Shown: positions 3,062 through 17,745 of the stretch, piece by piece | Layout of the letters: the number at the start of each line of letters is the position of its first letter | How positions within the stretch are numbered: position 1 is the stretch's first letter | Source: a virus | DNA: 64,000 nucleotides | Direction: 5' to 3' (one strand) | IMG/VR virus record: IMGVR_UViG_3300027816_000056 | Translations under genes and position numbers: made by a program | Notes under the pieces: model-generated | Told to the model about the DNA's origin: nothing | The model's input: only the letters and a program-made list of their open reading frames with translations | Database searches by the model: none

Positions 3062-3814
3062 TTATTTAAAGGTTATTTCATTTGTAACGTTGTCCCACTC
3101 AAAATTCCATGGAAGGTGTGCGTATGAATATCTTTCATTCAATACAGATGCATTGAAGAAATGTGTATGGCCGTTAAAGTAATGTCCCCAACTGCCATGT
3201 ATGTGACCAAATACATGAATCTTAGGACGTATTTCATCTACTCGATATCTAAGCATTTCACAGCCTACACGTGTAGTAGATCCTCCTGGAATATCCAAAT
3301 AACCAAATGGAGGACCATGTGTGATTAAAATATCGGTGTTGTCTGAAATTGCATCCCAACGTGCTTTCATTTCCTCACCGTTGCGTGGCAAGTTGAATGC
3401 CCAATTGTAAAATTCTGGTTGCCACGGTGAACCATATATGCGAACGTTATCTTCTGGATGTTCTCCATTAGGTCCATCATAATATATTCCCATCCAATCA
3501 TCTTGCAAATATTCAATTGTTTTGTATCCAGTAAGTATTCCTTTAGCCCACTCCGGTTCCATTTCCATTATGCGGTCATGATTACCAGCAATAAATACTT
3601 TGGTATCGTAATTATCTATTTCATCAAACCACCGGAAAAATTCAACAGCTTCTGTTTGATGATATCCACTGCTCATAAAATCACCCGCATGGATAAGAAT
3701 ATCTCCACCCGGCAACTCTAACGGCTGATTGCTGTTACGAATAGATTTATTAGTAACAATATGATCGTGTTTAGTATGAGTATCTGATATTAATGAAACT
3801 TTAAACTTTGCCAT
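3062..3814 (-). CDS. metallophosphoesterase (calcineurin-like, MPPED/239FB type)
   Basis: SDTH, HAGD, GNHD, THGPP and GHIH motifs. Confidence 0.9.
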   Translation of the reverse strand: MAKFKVSLISDTHTKHDHIVTNKSIRNSNQPLELPGGDILIHAGDFMSSGYHQTEAVEFFRWFDEIDNYDTKVFIAGNHDRIMEMEPEWAKGILTGYKTIEYLQDDWMGIYYDGPNGEHPEDNVRIYGSPWQPEFYNWAFNLPRNGEEMKARWDAISDNTDILITHGPPFGYLDIPGGSTTRVGCEMLRYRVDEIRPKIHVFGHIHGSWGHYFNGHTHFFNASVLNERYSYAHLPWNFEWDNVTNEITFK

Positions 3815-4130
3815 CGTTTGCTATATATAACGTATAATCTGAATTTTTTGTTTTAAATGTTATGATGCGTTGATCTTCAACTTGTTCATCACTAATAATT
3901 TCTGTGATAGGTGTCGTGAGCCAAGTATACTGGAATCGCTGCGGATCAATCATAACACTGAATCCAACTTGTGGTTCTTCATGTAGTTGTTTTGCTCTAC
4001 TACCTAATTCTTCTCCGCCCCACTCTACAAATTTGACTTGTGAGCCTAGATGTGTTTCACCATTGCTCTTTACCAATTTTATATTTGATATCGGAATATC
4101 TATATTAATTTTAACTTGATCAATTTTCAT
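3801..4130 (-). CDS. hypothetical protein
   Basis: YTWLTTPITEI...FKTKNSDY; coupled to neighbours. Confidence 0.6.
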   Translation of the reverse strand: MKIDQVKINIDIPISNIKLVKSNGETHLGSQVKFVEWGGEELGSRAKQLHEEPQVGFSVMIDPQRFQYTWLTTPITEIISDEQVEDQRIITFKTKNSDYTLYIANDGKV

Positions 4131-4133
4131 AAC

Positions 4134-4652
4134 TTATCTGTTTAGTCCCAACTCTTTAAGACTCTTTGGTGTGTAATTAACATGTTCGCAGGATACACAA
4201 ATGTATCGACGATCTACTTGTTTAAATATGGGAATACCAAACAAAGTAAAATCTCGTTCAACTGATTTATTATGTATGTGGCCGTGTATGTTGTATTTAA
4301 CTCGATAATCCATCTCCATAGGATGTACCGGACAATGTGATAGGAAAATACCTTTGTATTGTATCATACCGGCTACGGATTCAACATGCTCAAGTAATTT
4401 TCTTGTGTGAGCTGCTCGATCGTGATTTCCTAGCACTACAATCTTTCGTCCATTAAGCTGATCCAATATATCATAATCAGCCTTTTCCATTGTTATATCA
4501 CCTAAAATATAGGTAGTATCGCGTTTATGTACAGTTCGATTCCATGTTTCTACAATATGTGCATCATGTTCAGCTACTGAAGTGAATCCTCTCCATTTAG
4601 CTACATTCTCATGACCGAAGTGCAAGTCTGCTATGAAACGTACTGTACTCAT
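4134..4652 (-). CDS. calcineurin-like phosphoesterase
   Basis: ADLHFGH, LGD, GNHD, SHCP, HGHIH; start re-assigned to MSTVRF just after promoter 4662-4690. Confidence 0.88.
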   Translation of the reverse strand: MSTVRFIADLHFGHENVAKWRGFTSVAEHDAHIVETWNRTVHKRDTTYILGDITMEKADYDILDQLNGRKIVVLGNHDRAAHTRKLLEHVESVAGMIQYKGIFLSHCPVHPMEMDYRVKYNIHGHIHNKSVERDFTLFGIPIFKQVDRRYICVSCEHVNYTPKSLKELGLNR

Positions 4653-4661
4653 TTTTTCTTT

Positions 4662-4690
4662 AATATAAGAAATAAAAGGGATCAATCCAA
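4662..4690 (-). promoter_or_regulatory. class A phage promoter (TTGGAT-N17-TATATT)
   Basis: Recurrent motif with exact 17-nt spacer. Confidence 0.65.
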
Positions 4691-4703
4691 ATAAATAACA
4701 AGT

Positions 4704-4971
4704 TATTAGAGTGACAAGGAACATAGCCAATGTTAACGACACAGTCAATGTCAAAGGCCTTCCTTGCTGCAAAGACAACGACAAAAACTAAGTCTCGGTT
4801 TGTTAGCCAATTATCCTAACCGGAGAAAGGTAACCTGTCTAACCGTTGAGTTCTATCTCAGTTTTTAAAATTTGCAAGGAAGCGATAAGATCATGACGCG
4901 AAGGTATCCCTCGCCAAAATGTAGTTATACAATATCTTGCTATATCATCATAAAACCTCATCACCCTAATA
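4704..4971 (-). ncRNA. putative ~270-nt rod-like structured RNA with NTTGNC hexamer repeats
   Basis: Nested long-range stems: 4961-4971/4704-4714 (11 bp, 1 GU), 4874-4882/4759-4767 (9 bp), 4857-4866/4783-4792 (10 bp, 1 GU), plus inner hairpins; GU pairs favour the minus strand. Confidence 0.65.
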
Positions 4972-5014
4972 CAAAAAGAAAGGGTTTCGGCTTGTGCTTC
5001 TACCCTCGCTTACC

Positions 5015-5929
5015 TTATTCTTTTGTGATAAACATATCAATTACAGGCTGAAACCTTTCCGGTACCTGGATACGCCATGCGGCAATATCATTGATTTGTT
5101 TTTCTAGTTGTTCTTGAAATTCGAATCTAGCTTTCTTTTCAGCCGCATACCATTGTTCTTTTAAAGAATCATACTCAGTACGAACAACGTTGTTATGTGC
5201 AATTGCTGTAGCTTGTGTTTCTGCATTTGTACGAGCAATACGAGCATTCTCAGCCGTAACAAGATTTTTAACTTTGGCTTTGAAATAGTTAACGCGTTGT
5301 TCATATTCACGATGCTGTTTTGCCAATGTTTCGTGAAGCAAAGCCAATCCTGCGGCAGTATGATGACAATGAACTTCCACCGGAGTCTTCTCTCCATCTT
5401 TCACAGTAATCCATTCTAATGCTTGAATCTTAGGCAACTCTTTGCGAAGCTGATCCAATTCACCACCTTTATGAATAAACTGACCAATATGACTTGCATA
5501 GGCTTCAACTTCCAAGTATTCATTATACTCAGCAGTTGTTAGTTGATTCCATCCCCATGATTCATCCACATCTTCCAAAACATCATTAAACATTAAATCT
5601 CCACATTTTGGAAATTCTGCTTGGTCCGAATAATCAAACGGCTTGTTACGTGTTTCTTTGATCATTTCATCTTTTGCACGGATATTCTCCATAAGGAATG
5701 CCTGTGTGGCACTCAATCGAGCTTTCTCATTAAGTAGTTCAACAACTGATGCCGGCATTGGATTAGCAATTTGCTGAGTATACGTTTTGCCGTTAACGGT
5801 TACCGTCTTTGATGCATTGTTAATTACTGACAATTGATCCTTAATATCACGCACTCTTTGATTGCAAAGATTGCTTACTGATTGAGCTTGTGAAAGAGAT
5901 AATCCGGTTGTTGCTAATGAATGTTTCAT
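5015..5929 (-). CDS. alpha-helical coiled-coil protein of unknown function
   Basis: 304-aa ORF with own promoter (5962-5990); EAYASHIGQFIH motif; long heptad C-terminus. Confidence 0.8.
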   Translation of the reverse strand: MKHSLATTGLSLSQAQSVSNLCNQRVRDIKDQLSVINNASKTVTVNGKTYTQQIANPMPASVVELLNEKARLSATQAFLMENIRAKDEMIKETRNKPFDYSDQAEFPKCGDLMFNDVLEDVDESWGWNQLTTAEYNEYLEVEAYASHIGQFIHKGGELDQLRKELPKIQALEWITVKDGEKTPVEVHCHHTAAGLALLHETLAKQHREYEQRVNYFKAKVKNLVTAENARIARTNAETQATAIAHNNVVRTEYDSLKEQWYAAEKKARFEFQEQLEKQINDIAAWRIQVPERFQPVIDMFITKE

Positions 5930-5961
5930 GTTTTTCCTTGTTTAAATGTTTAACTTAATTA

Positions 5962-5990
5962 ATAATAAGATACTTAATTCTAATTTCCAA
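5962..5990 (-). promoter_or_regulatory. class A phage promoter (TTGGAA-N17-TATTAT)
   Basis: Recurrent motif, 17-nt spacer. Confidence 0.6.
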
Positions 5991-6011
5991 ATGTTTTTTA
6001 AACTTTTTTTG

Positions 6012-6097
6012 TAGTCAGGACAGGATTCGAACCTGTGACCTCTGAAAATCCTGATTGGTTACAGCATATCATGCTCTGACCTCTGAGCTACCTGACT
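6012..6097 (-). tRNA. atypical tRNA-like RNA (possible GTA/Tyr loop on an irregular arm)
   Basis: AGTCAGG/CCTGACT acceptor, GCTC/GAGC D-stem, ACAGG-TTCGAAT-CCTGT T-arm; bulged anticodon arm with CTGTAAC loop. Confidence 0.55.
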
Positions 6098-6102
6098 ATA
6101 TT

Positions 6103-6196
6103 GAGGATGAGAAGTCCTCTGTGTTCCGTACAGGTATTACATGCATTACTGCAATCAGCTTAGTACATTCTTTATCCTTTCTCAAGGGAGAACACA
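6103..6196 (-). ncRNA. putative structured RNA with loop-mediated pseudoknot
   Basis: TGTGTTC/GAACACA stem, TGCA-GTAA-TGCA GNRA hairpin, GAGGA-CTTCTCA-TCCTC hairpin whose loop is complementary to internal TGAGAA. Confidence 0.5.
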
Positions 6197-6200
6197 TTTC

Positions 6201-6301
6201 GTAGTTATAATATCCTAAACTCTCATCAGTAGCCCATATCATCTACTGTTTGTTATGGGTTTAATCTATTAGGACAAGCCCCATCTCTTTATTACAACCA
6301 C
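6201..6301 (-). ncRNA. putative structured RNA containing an H-type pseudoknot
   Basis: 11-bp closing stem (2 GU), TCCTAA/TTAGGA stem, interleaved CCCATA/TATGGG and CAGTAG/CTACTG pairings. Confidence 0.5.
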
Positions 6302-6304
6302 TAG

Positions 6305-6424
6305 TAGTCAGGCAAGGATTCGAACCTTGAACGCTGTTTTTAACTCAGCCTCTCCAAAAAGGATAGCGTCTACCATATCAAGCACATACTATTACTCTTT
6401 GTACTATCATTCCGCCACCTGACT
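6305..6424 (-). tRNA. atypical class-II (Leu-like) tRNA-like RNA with ~35-nt D-loop insertion and no normal anticodon loop
   Basis: AGTCAGG/CCTGACT acceptor; TGGCGGAAT...GGTAGACGC Leu-type D arm; GCTG/CAGC variable arm; CAAGG-TTCGAAT-CCTTG T-arm. Confidence 0.55.
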
Positions 6425-6432
6425 TTAAAATA

Positions 6433-6507
6433 TAAGGCTGAGATTTTATCCTTCGAGATGGGAAGGGCTTATCTCAATTAAGCCTTGCCTATTATACCAG
6501 CGCCTTA
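6433..6507 (-). ncRNA. putative structured spacer RNA
   Basis: TAAGGC/GCCTTA closing stem; GGCTT/AAGCC hairpin whose loop TGAGAT can pair with downstream ATCTCA. Confidence 0.4.
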
Positions 6508-6514
6508 CGTGTTA

Positions 6515-6600
6515 TAGTCAGGACAGGACTCGAACCTGCATCTCCCCTAACCCGTTGCCATGACGGGTCTCAGGGTACTTCGCCTTTCAGACACCTGACT
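6515..6600 (-). tRNA. atypical tRNA-like RNA with extended anticodon arm (loop CATGGCA, nominal TGG/Pro)
   Basis: AGTCAGG/CCTGACT acceptor; CCCTGA/TTAGGG plus CCCGT/ACGGG double-length arm; GCAGG-TTCGAGT-CCTGT T-arm. Confidence 0.55.
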
Positions 6601-6667
6601 ATTTCTTCGGGGAGTACTCATGAGCTTAGGCATCACGCATCACACTCAATTCGCCTCCCGTCTTATG

Positions 6668-6739
6668 CGCGACCCCAAGGACTCGAACCCTGACTAATGG
6701 ATTTGGAATCCATCGTGCTACCAATTACACCAGAGAAGC
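6668..6739 (-). tRNA. tRNA-Trp(CCA)
   Basis: ATGGA-TTCCAAA-TCCAT anticodon arm, normal D/T arms, G73; two mismatches in acceptor stem. Confidence 0.75.
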
Positions 6740-6743
6740 AAAT

Positions 6744-6867
6744 AAAAACATTCAGAGGCCAAACGGGGTCAAAACATTGGGCTATTTTTTCCTTAGCTTT
6801 CCTATTTCTAGAGCTTCGGACTCCGTTCCTTTTCCCAACTTACGACCTTTTACGCGTGAATGTTTTT
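6744..6867 (-). ncRNA. putative structured spacer RNA
   Basis: Perfect 11-bp terminal stem AAAAACATTCA/TGAATGTTTTT; inner GGTC/GACC, TTGGG/CCCAA and CTA-GAAA-TAG tetraloop. Confidence 0.5.
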
Positions 6868-6868
6868 G

Positions 6869-6946
6869 TAGTCAGGACAGGATTCGAACCTGTGATAGAC
6901 GCTCTTTAGAGTCCGCTATCTTGGCAGCCAATTACACCACCTGACT
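6869..6946 (-). tRNA. atypical tRNA-like RNA (long anticodon arm, no variable loop)
   Basis: AGTCAGG/CCTGACT acceptor; GATAG/CTATC arm enclosing CGGACTCTAAAGAGCGT; ACAGG-TTCGAAT-CCTGT T-arm. Confidence 0.5.
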
Positions 6947-6952
6947 AATATT

Positions 6953-7161
6953 ATTACCTGTCCCCAAGTGAAATAAAGAATAGGTTGCCCCATTATCTTC
7001 AATTAGATAAGTCCACTTTTTTCTTTATCATCCAATAGACATAACATGTTACTTGGTTTGTGTTAGTGAGGCTCTGCGGCGCCATGAGTTTAATTATGTT
7101 AAATTTGGCAGTTCTCTCTGCTCCCACAGTTTTTATCACTTGTCTACCTTCAGCAGGTAAT
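6953..7161 (-). ncRNA. putative ~210-nt structured RNA
   Basis: ATTACCTG/CAGGTAAT closing stem; CCAAGT/ACTTGG, ATAAAGAA/TTCTTTAT, TTATCT/AGATAA and GCAG/CTGC inner stems; no ORF in the track. Confidence 0.45.
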
Positions 7162-7182
7162 GTTTTCAAAGAACGTTTCTAG

Positions 7183-7255
7183 TAGCGGAGGCCGGACTCG
7201 AACCGACGATCCTAGCTTATGAGACTAGGCGGATAACCATCTTCCACACTCCGCG
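7183..7255 (-). tRNA. tRNA-Met(CAT), initiator-like
   Basis: CTCATAA loop; C1:U72 mismatch as in fMet tRNAs; canonical T-arm. Confidence 0.85.
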
Positions 7256-7261
7256 ATATTG

Positions 7262-7333
7262 TATTCCGTACGAGATTCGAACTCGTGCCTCTGCTTAGAA
7301 AGAGCAGCGTGTTAACCACTTCACTAACGGAAC
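7262..7333 (-). tRNA. tRNA-Glu(TTC)
   Basis: Clean cloverleaf GTTCCGT/ACGGAAT; CTGCT-CTTTCTA-AGCAG anticodon arm. Confidence 0.85.
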
Positions 7334-7638: not shown

Positions 7639-8202
7639 TTATCTAACAATTGTTACATGTCCATGTGCTGTGTATTTAGCATCGGTGTATTTGTCTCCGA
7701 ACCATATAATCCACGTATATACGCCGTCTGAGCATAATTTCCCTGCGTATACGCCATCCCAAGTTGCTTCAGCATCATAAGATTCCCATATGGTTTCACC
7801 CCAACGATTCACTAATATTAGATGAAATTGATACGGATTAAATCCAGATGTAAATACCGGTCCCCACGTATTGTTTATTTCATCTCCATCCGGAGTAAAT
7901 GTGTTTGGCACCCAATACAATAAAGGATCACATTGTTTAACAGTTATTGTATATGTTATCGGATCACTCGGACAATTCAAAGCATAATGTGTTGCTGTGA
8001 TAATGTATATGCCAGTGTCAGACCAAGTTAATGATATTGGGTTACCATAATAATATGCACCATCTACTTGCCATTCCGTTTCACCGGGTAAATCGGCTTC
8101 TGCAGAATAAACATATGTTTGTGGTTGATCATTACATAATGTAATTATCTGTTGTGCTGATGACACATTGCAAACTAACAATATGAATAATAACAGTCTC
8201 AT
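7639..8202 (-). CDS. secreted protein with gliding-motility-associated (T9SS type B / CHU_C) C-terminal domain
   Basis: Signal peptide MRLLLFILL...SAQQ; PNTFTPDGDEINNTW, NRWGE, WDG, DGVYTW, GHVTIVR. Confidence 0.85.
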   Translation of the reverse strand: MRLLLFILLVCNVSSAQQIITLCNDQPQTYVYSAEADLPGETEWQVDGAYYYGNPISLTWSDTGIYIITATHYALNCPSDPITYTITVKQCDPLLYWVPNTFTPDGDEINNTWGPVFTSGFNPYQFHLILVNRWGETIWESYDAEATWDGVYAGKLCSDGVYTWIIWFGDKYTDAKYTAHGHVTIVR

Positions 8203-8768
8203 TAGTTGTGGGATATTGGTGATAGAGTTGGAGTTGGGTTTACTACGACACTTGTCGTTGCAGTGAAAGTACATCCAGCTTGAGTGACAGTGTAGGTTAG
8301 TGGCCATGTACCAGCACCAGCAACGCCTGGACAAAAAGTATTTCCTACTACGCCTGTGCCTGTTAATACGCCACCTGCAGGACTAGTTACAACATTCACA
8401 CACGCATCTGTAACACAAAATGGTCCTAATGCTGTGATGCTTGGAACAATCTGCAAAATCAATACGTTTAGTGTGGATGCTGGAGAATTGCAACCATTAC
8501 CGGTTGATGCTACAACTGATACAGCATTTGTTATTAGGCCAGGTGCAGCTGCTGACCAATTGACTCCAATCTGGTTTGTGCCTTGTCCCGATGTAATAAC
8601 ACCTGGAGCAGCAACGGTCCATGTATATGTTACGCCTGGAGTATTAGTGACTTGATAAATTGATCCTGGTGTTTGATAGCAAACGGTATCCGGATTAATA
8701 GTTGTAAACTGCGTATACGCCGTCGTACATGCAACTAAGCTCAATAATAATAATAATAGTTTTTTCAT
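8202..8768 (-). CDS. secreted PKD/Ig-like beta-sandwich protein
   Basis: Signal peptide; YTWTV...GQGTNQIGVNW; ends ISHN. Confidence 0.8.
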   Translation of the reverse strand: MKKLLLLLLSLVACTTAYTQFTTINPDTVCYQTPGSIYQVTNTPGVTYTWTVAAPGVITSGQGTNQIGVNWSAAAPGLITNAVSVVASTGNGCNSPASTLNVLILQIVPSITALGPFCVTDACVNVVTSPAGGVLTGTGVVGNTFCPGVAGAGTWPLTYTVTQAGCTFTATTSVVVNPTPTLSPISHN

Positions 8769-17706: not shown

Positions 17707-17735
17707 AATATAAGAAATTATTCAGTACGATCCAA
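17707..17735 (-). promoter_or_regulatory. class A promoter
   Basis: TTGGAT-N17-TATATT. Confidence 0.6.
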
Positions 17736-17745
17736 CCAAAATGCA

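What the first reader, a model, noticed from the sequence alone, without database searches (positions are those of the whole stretch)
4704..5990. Coiled-coil protein followed by a ~270-nt rod-shaped RNA bearing hexamer repeats
Seen: a self-contained unit (promoter 5962-5990, 304-aa helical protein, then a non-coding stretch ending at the next promoter). The stretch folds into nested stems of 11, 8, 9 and 10 bp with GU pairs and an apical multiloop. Its 3' arm has a 6-nt periodicity: TTTGTC GTTGTC TTTGCA ... TTTGAC ATTGAC TGTGTC GTTAAC ATTGGC TATGTT (consensus NTTGNC). Inference: periodic motifs on a rod RNA suggest repeated binding sites for an oligomeric protein, so the adjacent protein and this RNA could form an undescribed ribonucleoprotein, decoy/sponge or RNA-antitoxin-like pair. 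I cannot assign it to a named Rfam family.
Basis: partly seen in the sequence, partly recalled or inferred. Interest (0 to 1): 0.8.

Follow-up and report, generated by a model that had tools for sequence, protein, structure and literature searches.

The report
Phage hexamer-track RNA with partner gene
A conserved, folded non-coding RNA of about 300 bases carrying two tracks of six-base U-rich repeats follows an unknown 304-aa gene in every related large phage examined, and some relatives tie it to Ro60/Y-RNA systems, so it is probably an undescribed phage RNA-protein module.

Summary
On the minus strand a 304-aa ORF (5015-5929) is followed by about 300 nt of non-coding, structured sequence (4704-5007).

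The RNA is real:
- Helices P1, P3, P4 and P6 covary (0/500 shuffles).
- The six-base period is non-random (0/5000 shuffles).
- The 3' repeat track aligns without a gap in 52 relatives.

Gene and RNA are strictly linked:
- 78 of 81 sources have it; the 3 misses are truncated contigs.
- 27 of 27 RNA-first hits have the gene upstream.
- There is one copy in each of 5 phage genome records (4 rated complete).
- Seven protein homologues at 23-31% identity keep P1, P3 and both repeat tracks.

The full "rod" is only partly real. Pairing of the 5' arm with the repeats is no better than with swapped or shuffled arms.

There is no Rfam match, and the protein has no Pfam, PDB or fold match.

New leads:
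- A Ro60/TROVE gene abuts the module in three loci, representing two lineages.
- One distant member carries a YrlA-like permuted tRNA mimic (47 bits).

The window copy fails the defining YrlA tests.

Best reading: a Y-RNA-like scaffold RNA working with the co-encoded protein. Binding is untested.

This scan earlier noted similar "protein plus hexamer-repeat plus tRNA-mimic RNA" cassettes (DUF7873) on other DNA. This protein does not match that family in Pfam.

The parts
5962..5991 (-). promoter-like motif TTTGG-N-TYTTATWWT upstream of the 304-aa gene
   Evidence: 3 sites in the window vs 0.5 expected. The same motif precedes the genes that start at 4652 and 17684.
5015..5929 (-). 304-aa protein gene of unknown family (long helices plus two beta-hairpin sheets)
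   Evidence: ORF. 2448 homologues. 431 clusters at 50% identity. AF2 pLDDT 90.8. No Pfam, PDB or fold match.
4980..5007 (-). hairpin H0: stem that differs between relatives, conserved loop (A)AGCACAAGCYGA(U) with a small apical GC/GC stem
   Evidence: loop motif in 38 of 62 distinct loci, and variants keep the shape. The stems differ in sequence.
4970..4979 (-). U-rich tract after H0 (H0 plus this tract looks like a leaky terminator or processing site)
   Evidence: UUUUAUG or UUUUGUA is conserved between H0 and P1.
4956..4971 (-). P1, 5' strand of the closing stem
   Evidence: all 16 pairs show double changes on a sequence-only alignment, 0/500 shuffles; outer pairs e.g. UA:20 / CG:17.
4883..4955 (-). 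variable 5' arm with local hairpin P2 (4895-4915)
   Evidence: sequence and length vary. The hairpin keeps its place but changes sequence. In L208 a YrlA-like tRNA mimic takes this place.
4874..4882 (-). P3, 5' strand
   Evidence: 9 of 9 pairs covary, 99.8% paired.
4860..4865 (-). P4, 5' strand (AAAACU)
   Evidence: 5 of 6 pairs with double changes, 91% paired.
4848..4859 (-). P5 hairpin GAG-AUAGAA-CUC, nearly invariant
   Evidence: the stem never varies, so there is no covariation evidence.
4802..4843 (-). P6 (4835-4843 with 4802-4810) enclosing the variable apical hairpin P7 (4811-4834)
   Evidence: 7 of 11 pairs covary. P7 varies from about 20 to 70 nt.
4790..4801 (-). conserved joining strand J6/4 (AAACCGAGACUU)
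4770..4793 (-). repeat track A: four hexamers ending UAG or UUG (its first units overlap J6/4 and the P4 3' strand at 4784-4789)
   Evidence: kept in homologues down to 23% protein identity.
4759..4767 (-). P3, 3' strand (GCAAGGAAG)
4722..4757 (-). repeat track B: six hexamers of the (G)UCUUUG kind, ending in a CUAU box
   Evidence: gapless in 52 relatives; the period is significant; no specific pairing with the 5' arm.
4704..4719 (-). P1, 3' strand
4662..4691 (-). promoter-like motif of the next gene (a metallophosphoesterase); marks the end of the unit
   Evidence: 39 nt here are 87% identical to 1622-1660.

Best explanation
This is a genuine, widespread and uncatalogued phage non-coding RNA of about 270-305 nt that forms one genetic module with the 304-aa gene in front of it.

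Most likely mechanism:
1. The RNA is made from the gene's own promoter, as the 3' part of that transcript. It lies behind hairpin H0, which may act as a leaky terminator or a processing site.
2. It folds into a closing stem (P1), an inner helix (P3) and a three-way core (P4, P5, P6/P7).
3. It then acts as a Y-RNA-like scaffold. Its two length-fixed tracks of (G)UCUUUG-like hexamers, one on each side of the P3 3' strand, would offer several adjacent landing sites of about 6 nt for a single-strand RNA-binding partner.
4. That partner could be copies of the co-encoded protein, or host OB-fold proteins (cold-shock, S1 or exoribonuclease domains).
5. In some relatives a phage Ro60 would join.

Shown: the RNA structure, the repeats, the gene-RNA linkage, and the Ro60 and tRNA-mimic links in relatives.

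Inferred: co-transcription, all binding, and a role in the phage's tRNA/RNA-repair neighbourhood.
For: Structure:
- Core model R1 gives 95.8% paired cells and 21 of 29 pairs with double changes, with 0/500 shuffles and slid controls at 35-57%.
- P1 covaries on a sequence-only alignment.

Linkage:
- R1 hits 78 of 81 sources, always on the gene's strand and downstream of the gene. The 3 misses are contigs that end within about 200 nt of the gene.
- Elements found by an RNA-only 14-mer all have the gene upstream: 27 of 27 with enough room.
- There is exactly one copy in each of 5 phage genome records, 4 of them rated complete.
- Seven homologues at 23-31% protein identity, including a GC-rich one, keep P1, P3 and both hexamer tracks; most also show a hairpin after the stop codon, and in L204 the element lies about 600 nt downstream of the gene.

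Conservation: the RNA core is 76% identical and the 3' arm 74%, against 67% for the gene's DNA. Track B has no indel in 52 relatives.

Transcription unit: promoter-like motifs bound the unit and none lies between the gene and the RNA.

Y-RNA link:
- A TROVE/Ro60 ORF starts right after the RNA in L031 and L075, and one lies right before the gene in L016. The L016 protein is 37% identical to the L031 one.
- L208 carries a YrlA-like permuted tRNA mimic in the 5' arm: 47.1 bits, E about 1e-9.

Context: same-strand tRNA arrays and two metallophosphoesterases just downstream. This fits the RNA-repair setting described for phage TROVE proteins (PMC7824862).

Repeat unit: it equals the preferred heptamer GTCTTTG/T of B. 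subtilis CspB, and cold-shock domains have six base-binding subsites (PMC1904285, PMC7825780).
Against: - No expression data.
- No binding evidence of any kind. The protein has no recognisable RNA-binding fold or family.
- The window, and the three ~168-kb relatives rated complete, have no Ro60 gene.
- The YrlA Ro-binding motif GNCGAAN0-1G is absent from all 52 elements.
- The window copy has no tRNA-like module.
- Ro60-bearing loci also show separate weak YrlA-like hits nearby that could be the true Y RNAs there.
- Cold-shock domains have low sequence selectivity, so the heptamer match is weak evidence.
- The repeats have an average predicted pairing probability (0.59), so they are not clearly single-stranded.
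- Tight linkage to the gene is equally expected of a cis-acting 3' UTR element.
Confidence: 0.5

Rival explanations
1. A cis-acting 3' UTR element of the 304-aa mRNA. The structured tail would stabilise the message against 3' exonucleases, or would be the site where the protein feeds back on its own mRNA. It would have no trans-acting role.
For: - It always lies directly 3' of the gene, on the same strand, at a fixed distance.
- No promoter-like motif lies between the gene and the RNA.
- H0 plus a U tract sits at the junction.
Against: - About 300 nt with a covarying multi-helix core, invariant loops and a length-fixed repeat track is far more than a stabiliser needs.
- The RNA is at least as conserved as the coding DNA.
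- Relatives attach a tRNA mimic or sit beside Ro60, which are hallmarks of trans-acting Y-like RNAs.
- In several loci about 600-900 nt, in L204 with small ORFs, separate the gene and the RNA.
Confidence: 0.2
2. A bona fide Y RNA. The RNA would be bound by Ro60/Rsr: the host's in this phage, the phage's own in L031, L075 and L016. It would tether Ro60 to an exoribonuclease as in RYPER complexes. The 304-aa protein would be an accessory or unrelated.
For: - A Ro60 gene lies next to the module, on the same strand, in two independent lineages.
- A distant member carries a YrlA-like module.
- The RNA has a closing stem plus large loops.
- Phage Ro60/Y-RNA pairs are known (PMC4201824, PMC12135203).
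Against: - The GNCGAAN0-1G motif is absent in 52 of 52 elements.
- The size is two to three times that of Y RNAs.
- Most phages carrying the RNA lack Ro60.
- Separate weak YrlA-like hits lie next to the phage Ro60 genes.
- Linkage to the 304-aa gene is absolute, while linkage to Ro60 is rare (3 of about 85 loci).
Confidence: 0.15
3. A sponge or decoy, independent of the neighbouring protein. The hexamer tracks would soak up host cold-shock-domain proteins or another U-rich-binding factor, for example a defence or RNA-decay protein.
For: - The unit equals the CspB-preferred GTCTTTG/T (PMC1904285).
- The 6-nt period fits the six subsites of a cold-shock domain (PMC7825780).
- There are nine to ten units per RNA.
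- No cold-shock-domain gene is found in the 5 phage genome records, so a target would be host-encoded.
Against: - Cold-shock domains bind with low specificity.
- This reading does not explain the absolute linkage to the 304-aa gene or the elaborate covarying core.
- No expression level is known.
Confidence: 0.1
4. A DNA-level element (iterons, an origin or a promoter array), or a small coding or leader-peptide region.
For: Repeats with TTG at a fixed spacing resemble iterons or -35-like boxes. Open frames of 15-58 codons occur.
Against: - Compensatory changes in four helices only make sense for RNA.
- G-U pairs and the better fold are on the gene's strand.
- Core lengths fall in all three classes modulo 3.
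- The longest ORF changes strand and position between relatives.
Confidence: 0.03

Closest known systems
YrlA/YrlB-type bacterial and phage Y RNAs with Ro60/Rsr (Rfam RF02553; Chen et al. 2014, PMC4201824; phage phiLo Ro60-Yrl, PMC12135203)
   Same: - A non-coding RNA closed by a 5'/3' stem with large loops.
- It sits among RNA-repair and tRNA genes.
- In three related loci it lies within 100-300 nt of a Ro60/TROVE gene on the same strand.
- One distant member has the T-arm, closed acceptor and D-arm module of YrlA (47 bits).
   Different: - The window copy has no Rfam hit, no tRNA-like module, no GNCGAAN0-1G motif and no Ro60 gene nearby.
- It is about 270-305 nt against 80-130 nt for Y RNAs.
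- Its constant partner is an unrelated 304-aa protein.
- It has two hexamer tracks, which the Y-RNA sources consulted here do not mention.
The 'DUF7873 protein plus hexamer-repeat plus back-to-front tRNA-mimic RNA' cassettes noted earlier by this scan on other phage genomes (unpublished AI notes, e.g. e1-5403208, e1-5402276, e1-5652427)
   Same: - A helical protein gene of unknown function is followed in nearly all relatives by a roughly 300-nt structured RNA with rows of six-base repeats.
- It lies in phages near tRNA genes, mostly without Ro60.
- L208 of this family also has the permuted tRNA mimic.
   Different: - The protein here gives no DUF7873 hit in Pfam, even at E up to 10, and is about 50 residues longer.
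- The window subfamily has a three-way core (P4-P7) instead of a tRNA mimic.
- Homology between the two cassettes was not tested directly, because no DUF7873 sequence or accession was at hand.
TRAP-binding (G/U)AG triplet repeats of the Bacillus trp leader, and HutP UAG repeats (from general knowledge)
   Same: Short U/G-containing triplets (UUG or UAG) repeated at a fixed short spacing on single-stranded RNA, which is the classic signature of an oligomeric RNA-binding protein.
   Different: - No TRAP- or HutP-like gene was seen.
- The repeats sit in a stand-alone structured RNA, not in an attenuator.
- The spacing is exactly 6 nt.
- The two tracks are split by a helix strand.
Protein-sponge RNAs such as CsrB/RsmZ (from general knowledge)
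   Same: A non-coding RNA with many copies of a short protein-binding motif.
   Different: - The motif is U-rich UCUUUG in loops, not GGA in hairpin loops.
- It is strictly linked to one protein gene.
- It is phage-encoded.

Membership tests
YrlA (Rfam RF02553) | Match to the Rfam covariance model at or above the gathering score (69 bits) | tested here: not met
   Window 4500-5200 gives no YrlA hit at E up to 10, and nothing reaches gathering score in the whole window. The distant member L208 reaches 47.1 bits.
YrlA (Rfam RF02553) | tRNA-like module (T-arm, closed acceptor stem, D-arm) | tested here: not met
   Absent from the window element and from the 52 aligned relatives. Present only in L208.
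YrlA / Y RNAs | GNCGAAN0-1G motif near the 5' end, the presumed Ro60 contact (PMC4201824) | tested here: not met
   0 of 52 elements have it. The H0 loop has only GCCGAU, GCUGAU or GCCGAA.
YrlA / Y RNAs | Encoded within 4 kb of a Ro60/TROVE gene on the same strand (PMC4201824) | tested here: not met
   No TROVE in the 64-kb window by tblastn, and none in three ~168-kb relatives rated complete. The feature is met in L031, L075 and L016.
YrlA / Y RNAs | Length of 80-130 nt | tested here: not met
   P1 to P1 spans 268 nt (4704-4971), or about 305 nt with H0.
YrlA / Y RNAs | Physically bound by Ro60 | not testable with these tools
   No RNA-protein prediction tool and no data were at hand.
DUF7873 / tRNA-mimic RNA cassette (earlier notes of this scan) | Partner protein belongs to Pfam DUF7873 | tested here: not met
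   No such hit for the window protein or for 49 family members. Remote homology was not excluded, because no profile-profile comparison was possible.
DUF7873 / tRNA-mimic RNA cassette (earlier notes of this scan) | Downstream RNA with six-base repeats | tested here: met
DUF7873 / tRNA-mimic RNA cassette (earlier notes of this scan) | Circularly permuted tRNA look-alike in the RNA | tested here: not met
   Absent in the window and its close relatives. Present in L208.
Intrinsic terminator (for H0) | GC-containing stem followed directly by a U run | tested here: inconclusive
   A stem of 6 bp or more plus UUUUAUG or UUUUGUA is seen in nearly all loci. The 16-nt conserved loop is atypical, and the scan tool did not call it.
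Any Rfam 15 family (tRNA, 6S, group I intron, tmRNA and others) | Covariance-model match | tested here: not met
   only unrelated hits with E of 0.47 or more.

The most novel reading that the evidence does not exclude
The 304-aa protein and this RNA would be a new phage ribonucleoprotein class. It would be a tRNA-less sister of the 'unknown protein plus hexamer-track plus tRNA-mimic RNA' cassettes. It would represent a Ro60-independent (occasionally Ro60-assisted) counterpart of Y-RNA particles, in which a track of (G)UCUUUG hexamers lines up several copies of a single-strand RNA-binding partner. The purpose would be to redirect host RNA decay or RNA repair, or to counter tRNA-targeting defences during infection.
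Probability: 0.35. Interest if true: 0.85.

Novelty: new variant of a known kind. Interest (0 to 1): 0.75.

Why it matters
Few phage-encoded structured RNAs have a known partner. This gene-RNA pair has several notable properties:
- It is found in hundreds of large environmental phages.
- The RNA is at least as conserved as the protein-coding DNA.
- It has a clean, testable architecture: two fixed-length tracks of a six-base motif held by covarying helices.
- It has evolutionary links to Ro60 and to tRNA-mimicking Y RNAs.

This offers a handle on two questions. One is what Y-RNA-like particles do in phage infection. The other is how they can work without Ro60. It also defines a new protein family with a likely RNA-related role. 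The covariance model built here could seed an Rfam-style family.

Tried and rejected
- blastn of 4000-6100 against 50,697 deposited phage genomes: no match.
- No whole genome is held for the window.
- Self-blast: the RNA is single-copy in the window. Only the downstream promoter region is repeated.
- Tandem Repeats Finder: nothing. The period lies in a motif, not in exact copies.
- Rfam at gathering and E-value thresholds: nothing.
- Protein function: Pfam, PDB sequence search, Foldseek on PDB and BFVD, VIA wide, ESM Atlas by shape and by features gave only uncharacterised homologues or generic helical bundles. The JGI label 'head-tail adaptor' on a few homologues is not backed by any of these searches, and the gene lies among tRNA, thymidylate synthase and GroEL genes.
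- Rod pairing of the 5' arm with track B: rejected by the own-versus-swapped test.
- Coding or leader-peptide reading: rejected.
- Host assignment through genome contigs: only short, probably mis-binned MAG contigs.
- A 21-base degenerate pattern of track B in cellular genomes: besides a phage contig already in hand (L211), 12 hits, all inside membrane-protein coding sequences such as Pedobacter transporter genes. None has an R1 hit, the protein or TROVE, so they are chance or coding matches.
- Cold-shock-domain and RtcB genes in the 5 related phage genome records: none. RNA ligase is present in some, but not adjacent.
- Complex prediction (phage Ro60 with the 304-aa protein of L031) could not be reached in five tries, so no job ran and no verdict exists.
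- The DUF7873 family could not be searched in genomes because its accession was not known.
Full report
WHAT IS THERE

The unit lies on the minus strand.
- A promoter-like motif (5962-5991) precedes a 304-aa ORF (5015-5929).
- The next gene, a metallophosphoesterase, starts at 4652 behind a second copy of the same motif (4662-4691).
- Between them lie about 360 nt with no Rfam match at any threshold.
- A same-strand tRNA array lies just upstream (6011-7333).
- The window is phage DNA of 34% G+C. It carries thymidylate synthase, GroEL and T9SS-type cargo genes that point to a Bacteroidota host.

The minus-strand fold of 4704-4985 is a long nested structure: -79.9 kcal/mol, z = -3.56, 0/200 shuffles.

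The six-base period is real. Read in one register, the 3' arm has 8 of 13 units ending in U[U/A]G or GUG. No dinucleotide shuffle out of 5000 reaches more than 6.

IS IT CONSERVED?

The 304-aa protein has 2448 homologues, on contigs of up to about 430 kb, and 431 clusters at 50% identity.

In 80 viral loci fetched through the protein, blastn already found the downstream non-coding DNA at 70-90% identity, although the proteins are only 50-58% identical.

A covariance model of the core (R1: 127 positions, 29 pairs) gave these results:
- It hit 78 of 81 sources, always downstream of the gene on its strand.
- The three misses are contigs that end within about 200 nt of the gene.
- On the resulting alignment 95.8% of cells pair, and 21 of 29 pairs show changes on both sides. 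No shuffle out of 500 reaches the observed values, and slid controls pair at 35-57%.
- P3 covaries at 9 of 9 pairs, P6 at 7 of 11 and P4 at 5 of 6. P5 is invariant.

That alignment was fitted to the model. However, RNAalifold on a plain MAFFT alignment independently recovered P6 and the outer stem P1. P1 counted on that alignment shows double changes at all 16 pairs (0/500 shuffles), for example UA:20 against CG:17 at one pair.

THE REVERSE TEST

Starting from an RNA-only 14-mer, 28 true elements were confirmed by R1. All 27 with enough upstream DNA have the protein gene immediately 5' on the same strand. Five phage genome records, four of them rated complete, each hold exactly one copy.

DEEP CONSERVATION

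Seven contigs encode protein homologues at only 23-31% identity (L204, L205, L208, L216-L219). One of them is GC-rich. All carry downstream a closing stem, a P3-like helix and two tracks of YUUUG-type hexamers flanking the P3 3' strand; most also have a hairpin after the stop codon, and in L204 the element sits about 600 nt downstream. They lack the P5-P7 core. So the deeply conserved features are P1, P3 and the two tracks. The three-way core is specific to one subfamily.

Track B (about 42 nt) aligns without a single indel in 52 relatives. The RNA core (76%) and the 3' arm (74%) are at least as conserved as the gene's DNA (67%). The 5' arm is at background (62%).

WHAT IS NOT REAL

The continuous rod is not supported.
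- The interaction energy between each 5' arm and its own track B (-4.3 kcal/mol) is no better than with arms swapped between phages (-4.8) or shuffled (-5.9).
- The predicted pairing probability of the tracks (0.59-0.60) equals the element's average. P3 is at 0.91.
- The tracks are therefore best seen as loosely paired or open strands held between P1 and P3.

A coding reading is excluded. The longest ORF varies from 15 to 58 codons and changes strand and position between relatives. Core lengths fall in all classes modulo 3.

Hairpin H0 (4980-5007) lies right after the stop codon. Its stem differs in sequence between relatives. Its loop, (A)AGCACAAGCYGA(U), is conserved, with a tiny apical stem. 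A U-rich tract follows. It looks like a leaky terminator or a processing or binding site. No promoter-like motif lies between the gene and the RNA, so co-transcription is the simplest inference. This is not shown.

WHAT IS IT?

The protein gives no clue.
- Its AF2 model is confident (pLDDT 90.8): long helices plus two beta-hairpin sheets.
- It has no Pfam, PDB-sequence, Foldseek, VIA or Atlas match beyond uncharacterised homologues.

The relatives do give clues.
- In L208 the 5' arm carries, in place of the simple hairpin P2, a circularly permuted tRNA-like domain (T-arm, closed acceptor stem, D-arm). It matches Rfam YrlA at 47.1 bits, E about 1e-9, below the gathering score of 69.
- In a 434-kb jumbo phage with terminal repeats (L031) and a 208-kb contig (L075), a 526-aa TROVE/Ro60 ORF starts right after the RNA.
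- In L016 a TROVE plus vWA_Ro60 ORF only 37% identical to that one lies right before the 304-aa gene.
- Bacterial and phage Y RNAs are defined by such adjacency to Ro60 (PMC4201824). Phage Ro60-Y-RNA particles that recruit host PNPase have been described (PMC12135203). TROVE proteins in jumbo phages are placed in RNA-repair contexts together with phosphoesterases (PMC7824862). The window has two metallophosphoesterases directly downstream.

The window's RNA nevertheless fails every sequence-level test for YrlA:
- no Rfam hit;
- no tRNA module;
- no GNCGAAN0-1G motif in any of 52 elements;
- no Ro60 in the window or in three ~168-kb relatives rated complete;
- two to three times the usual length.

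Ro60-bearing loci also contain separate weak YrlA-like hits that may be their canonical Y RNAs.

I therefore say that it probably works like a Y RNA (a scaffold RNA in an RNA-metabolism particle). I do not say that it is a member of that family.

THE REPEATS

The best-conserved unit, (G)UCUUUG(A), equals the preferred heptamer GTCTTTG/T of B. subtilis CspB. Cold-shock domains have six base-binding subsites (PMC1904285, PMC7825780). That fits the 6-nt period and the idea of side-by-side OB-fold binding. Such domains have low specificity, however, and the five related phage genome records encode none. This is a lead, not a finding.

EARLIER NOTES OF THIS SCAN

After I had reached the YrlA/Ro60 link, a word search showed that the scan has noted 'DUF7873 protein plus hexamer-repeat plus back-to-front tRNA-mimic RNA' cassettes in at least eight other phage genomes. 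The present module looks like a sister of those. The layout is the same, and L208 even has the tRNA mimic. But the protein gives no DUF7873 hit, and the window subfamily has replaced the tRNA mimic by a three-way core. I could not test homology between the two protein families.

VERDICT

- A real structured phage non-coding RNA, absent from Rfam 15: very likely (about 0.9).
- A functional module with the 304-aa gene: very likely.
- A trans-acting Y-RNA-like scaffold whose hexamer tracks bind the partner protein or host OB-fold proteins: my best explanation, at about 0.5.
- A purely cis-acting 3' UTR element is the main rival.

Expression and binding remain untested here.

Noticed in passing
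L208:1396-1522: A circularly permuted tRNA-like domain (3' half, closed acceptor stem, then 5' half with D-arm) sits inside the 5' arm of the homologous RNA. It matches Rfam YrlA at 47 bits. Its string GAGCACAAGCCGAUAA resembles the conserved H0 loop of the window family.
   Followed up: partly
L031:3833-5413, L075:3835-5415, L016:638-2263: Phage-encoded Ro60/TROVE (plus vWA) genes lie directly beside the protein-RNA module. One lies downstream of the RNA and the other upstream of the gene. The two kinds are only 37% identical.
   Followed up: partly
L016:492-577 and L031:2136-2218: Extra weak YrlA-like hits (33 and 32 bits, tRNA-like part only) lie next to the Ro60-bearing modules. They could be canonical Y RNAs, or artefacts of neighbouring tRNA genes.
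   Followed up: no
L038:2343-2420 and L070:2174-2251: ARAGORN calls a tRNA with anticodon UUA (reads the UAA stop) within about 100-330 nt upstream of the 304-aa gene in two relatives. These may be suppressor tRNAs.
   Followed up: no
window 4662-4691, 5962-5991, 17707-17740 (minus strand): A shared promoter-like motif, TTTGG-N14-22-TYTTATWWT, lies about 10-30 nt before three start codons. In addition, 39 nt at 4652-4690 are 87% identical to 1622-1660.
   Followed up: partly
window 6515-6600 and 6869-6946 (minus strand): Rfam scores two further tRNA-like elements (36.6 and 31.4 bits) that ARAGORN does not call.
   Followed up: no
window 3062-3814 and 4134-4652 (minus strand): Two metallophosphoesterase genes (PHROG 1649 and 547), with a small unknown gene between them, lie directly downstream of the RNA. 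This is a plausible RNA-end-healing context.
   Followed up: no
L008:3802-5784 and window 7639-8334: Phage genes ending in a CHU_C / type B T9SS sorting domain. They point to a Bacteroidota host.
   Followed up: no
L221, L223, L228, L229, L231 (Arachidicoccus and Pedobacter genomes): The degenerate track-B pattern also matches inside a conserved membrane-transporter coding sequence (codons for ...VFGLGFVLAFGYW...). This is a reminder that such hexamer periodicity can arise from hydrophobic coding sequence.
   Followed up: yes
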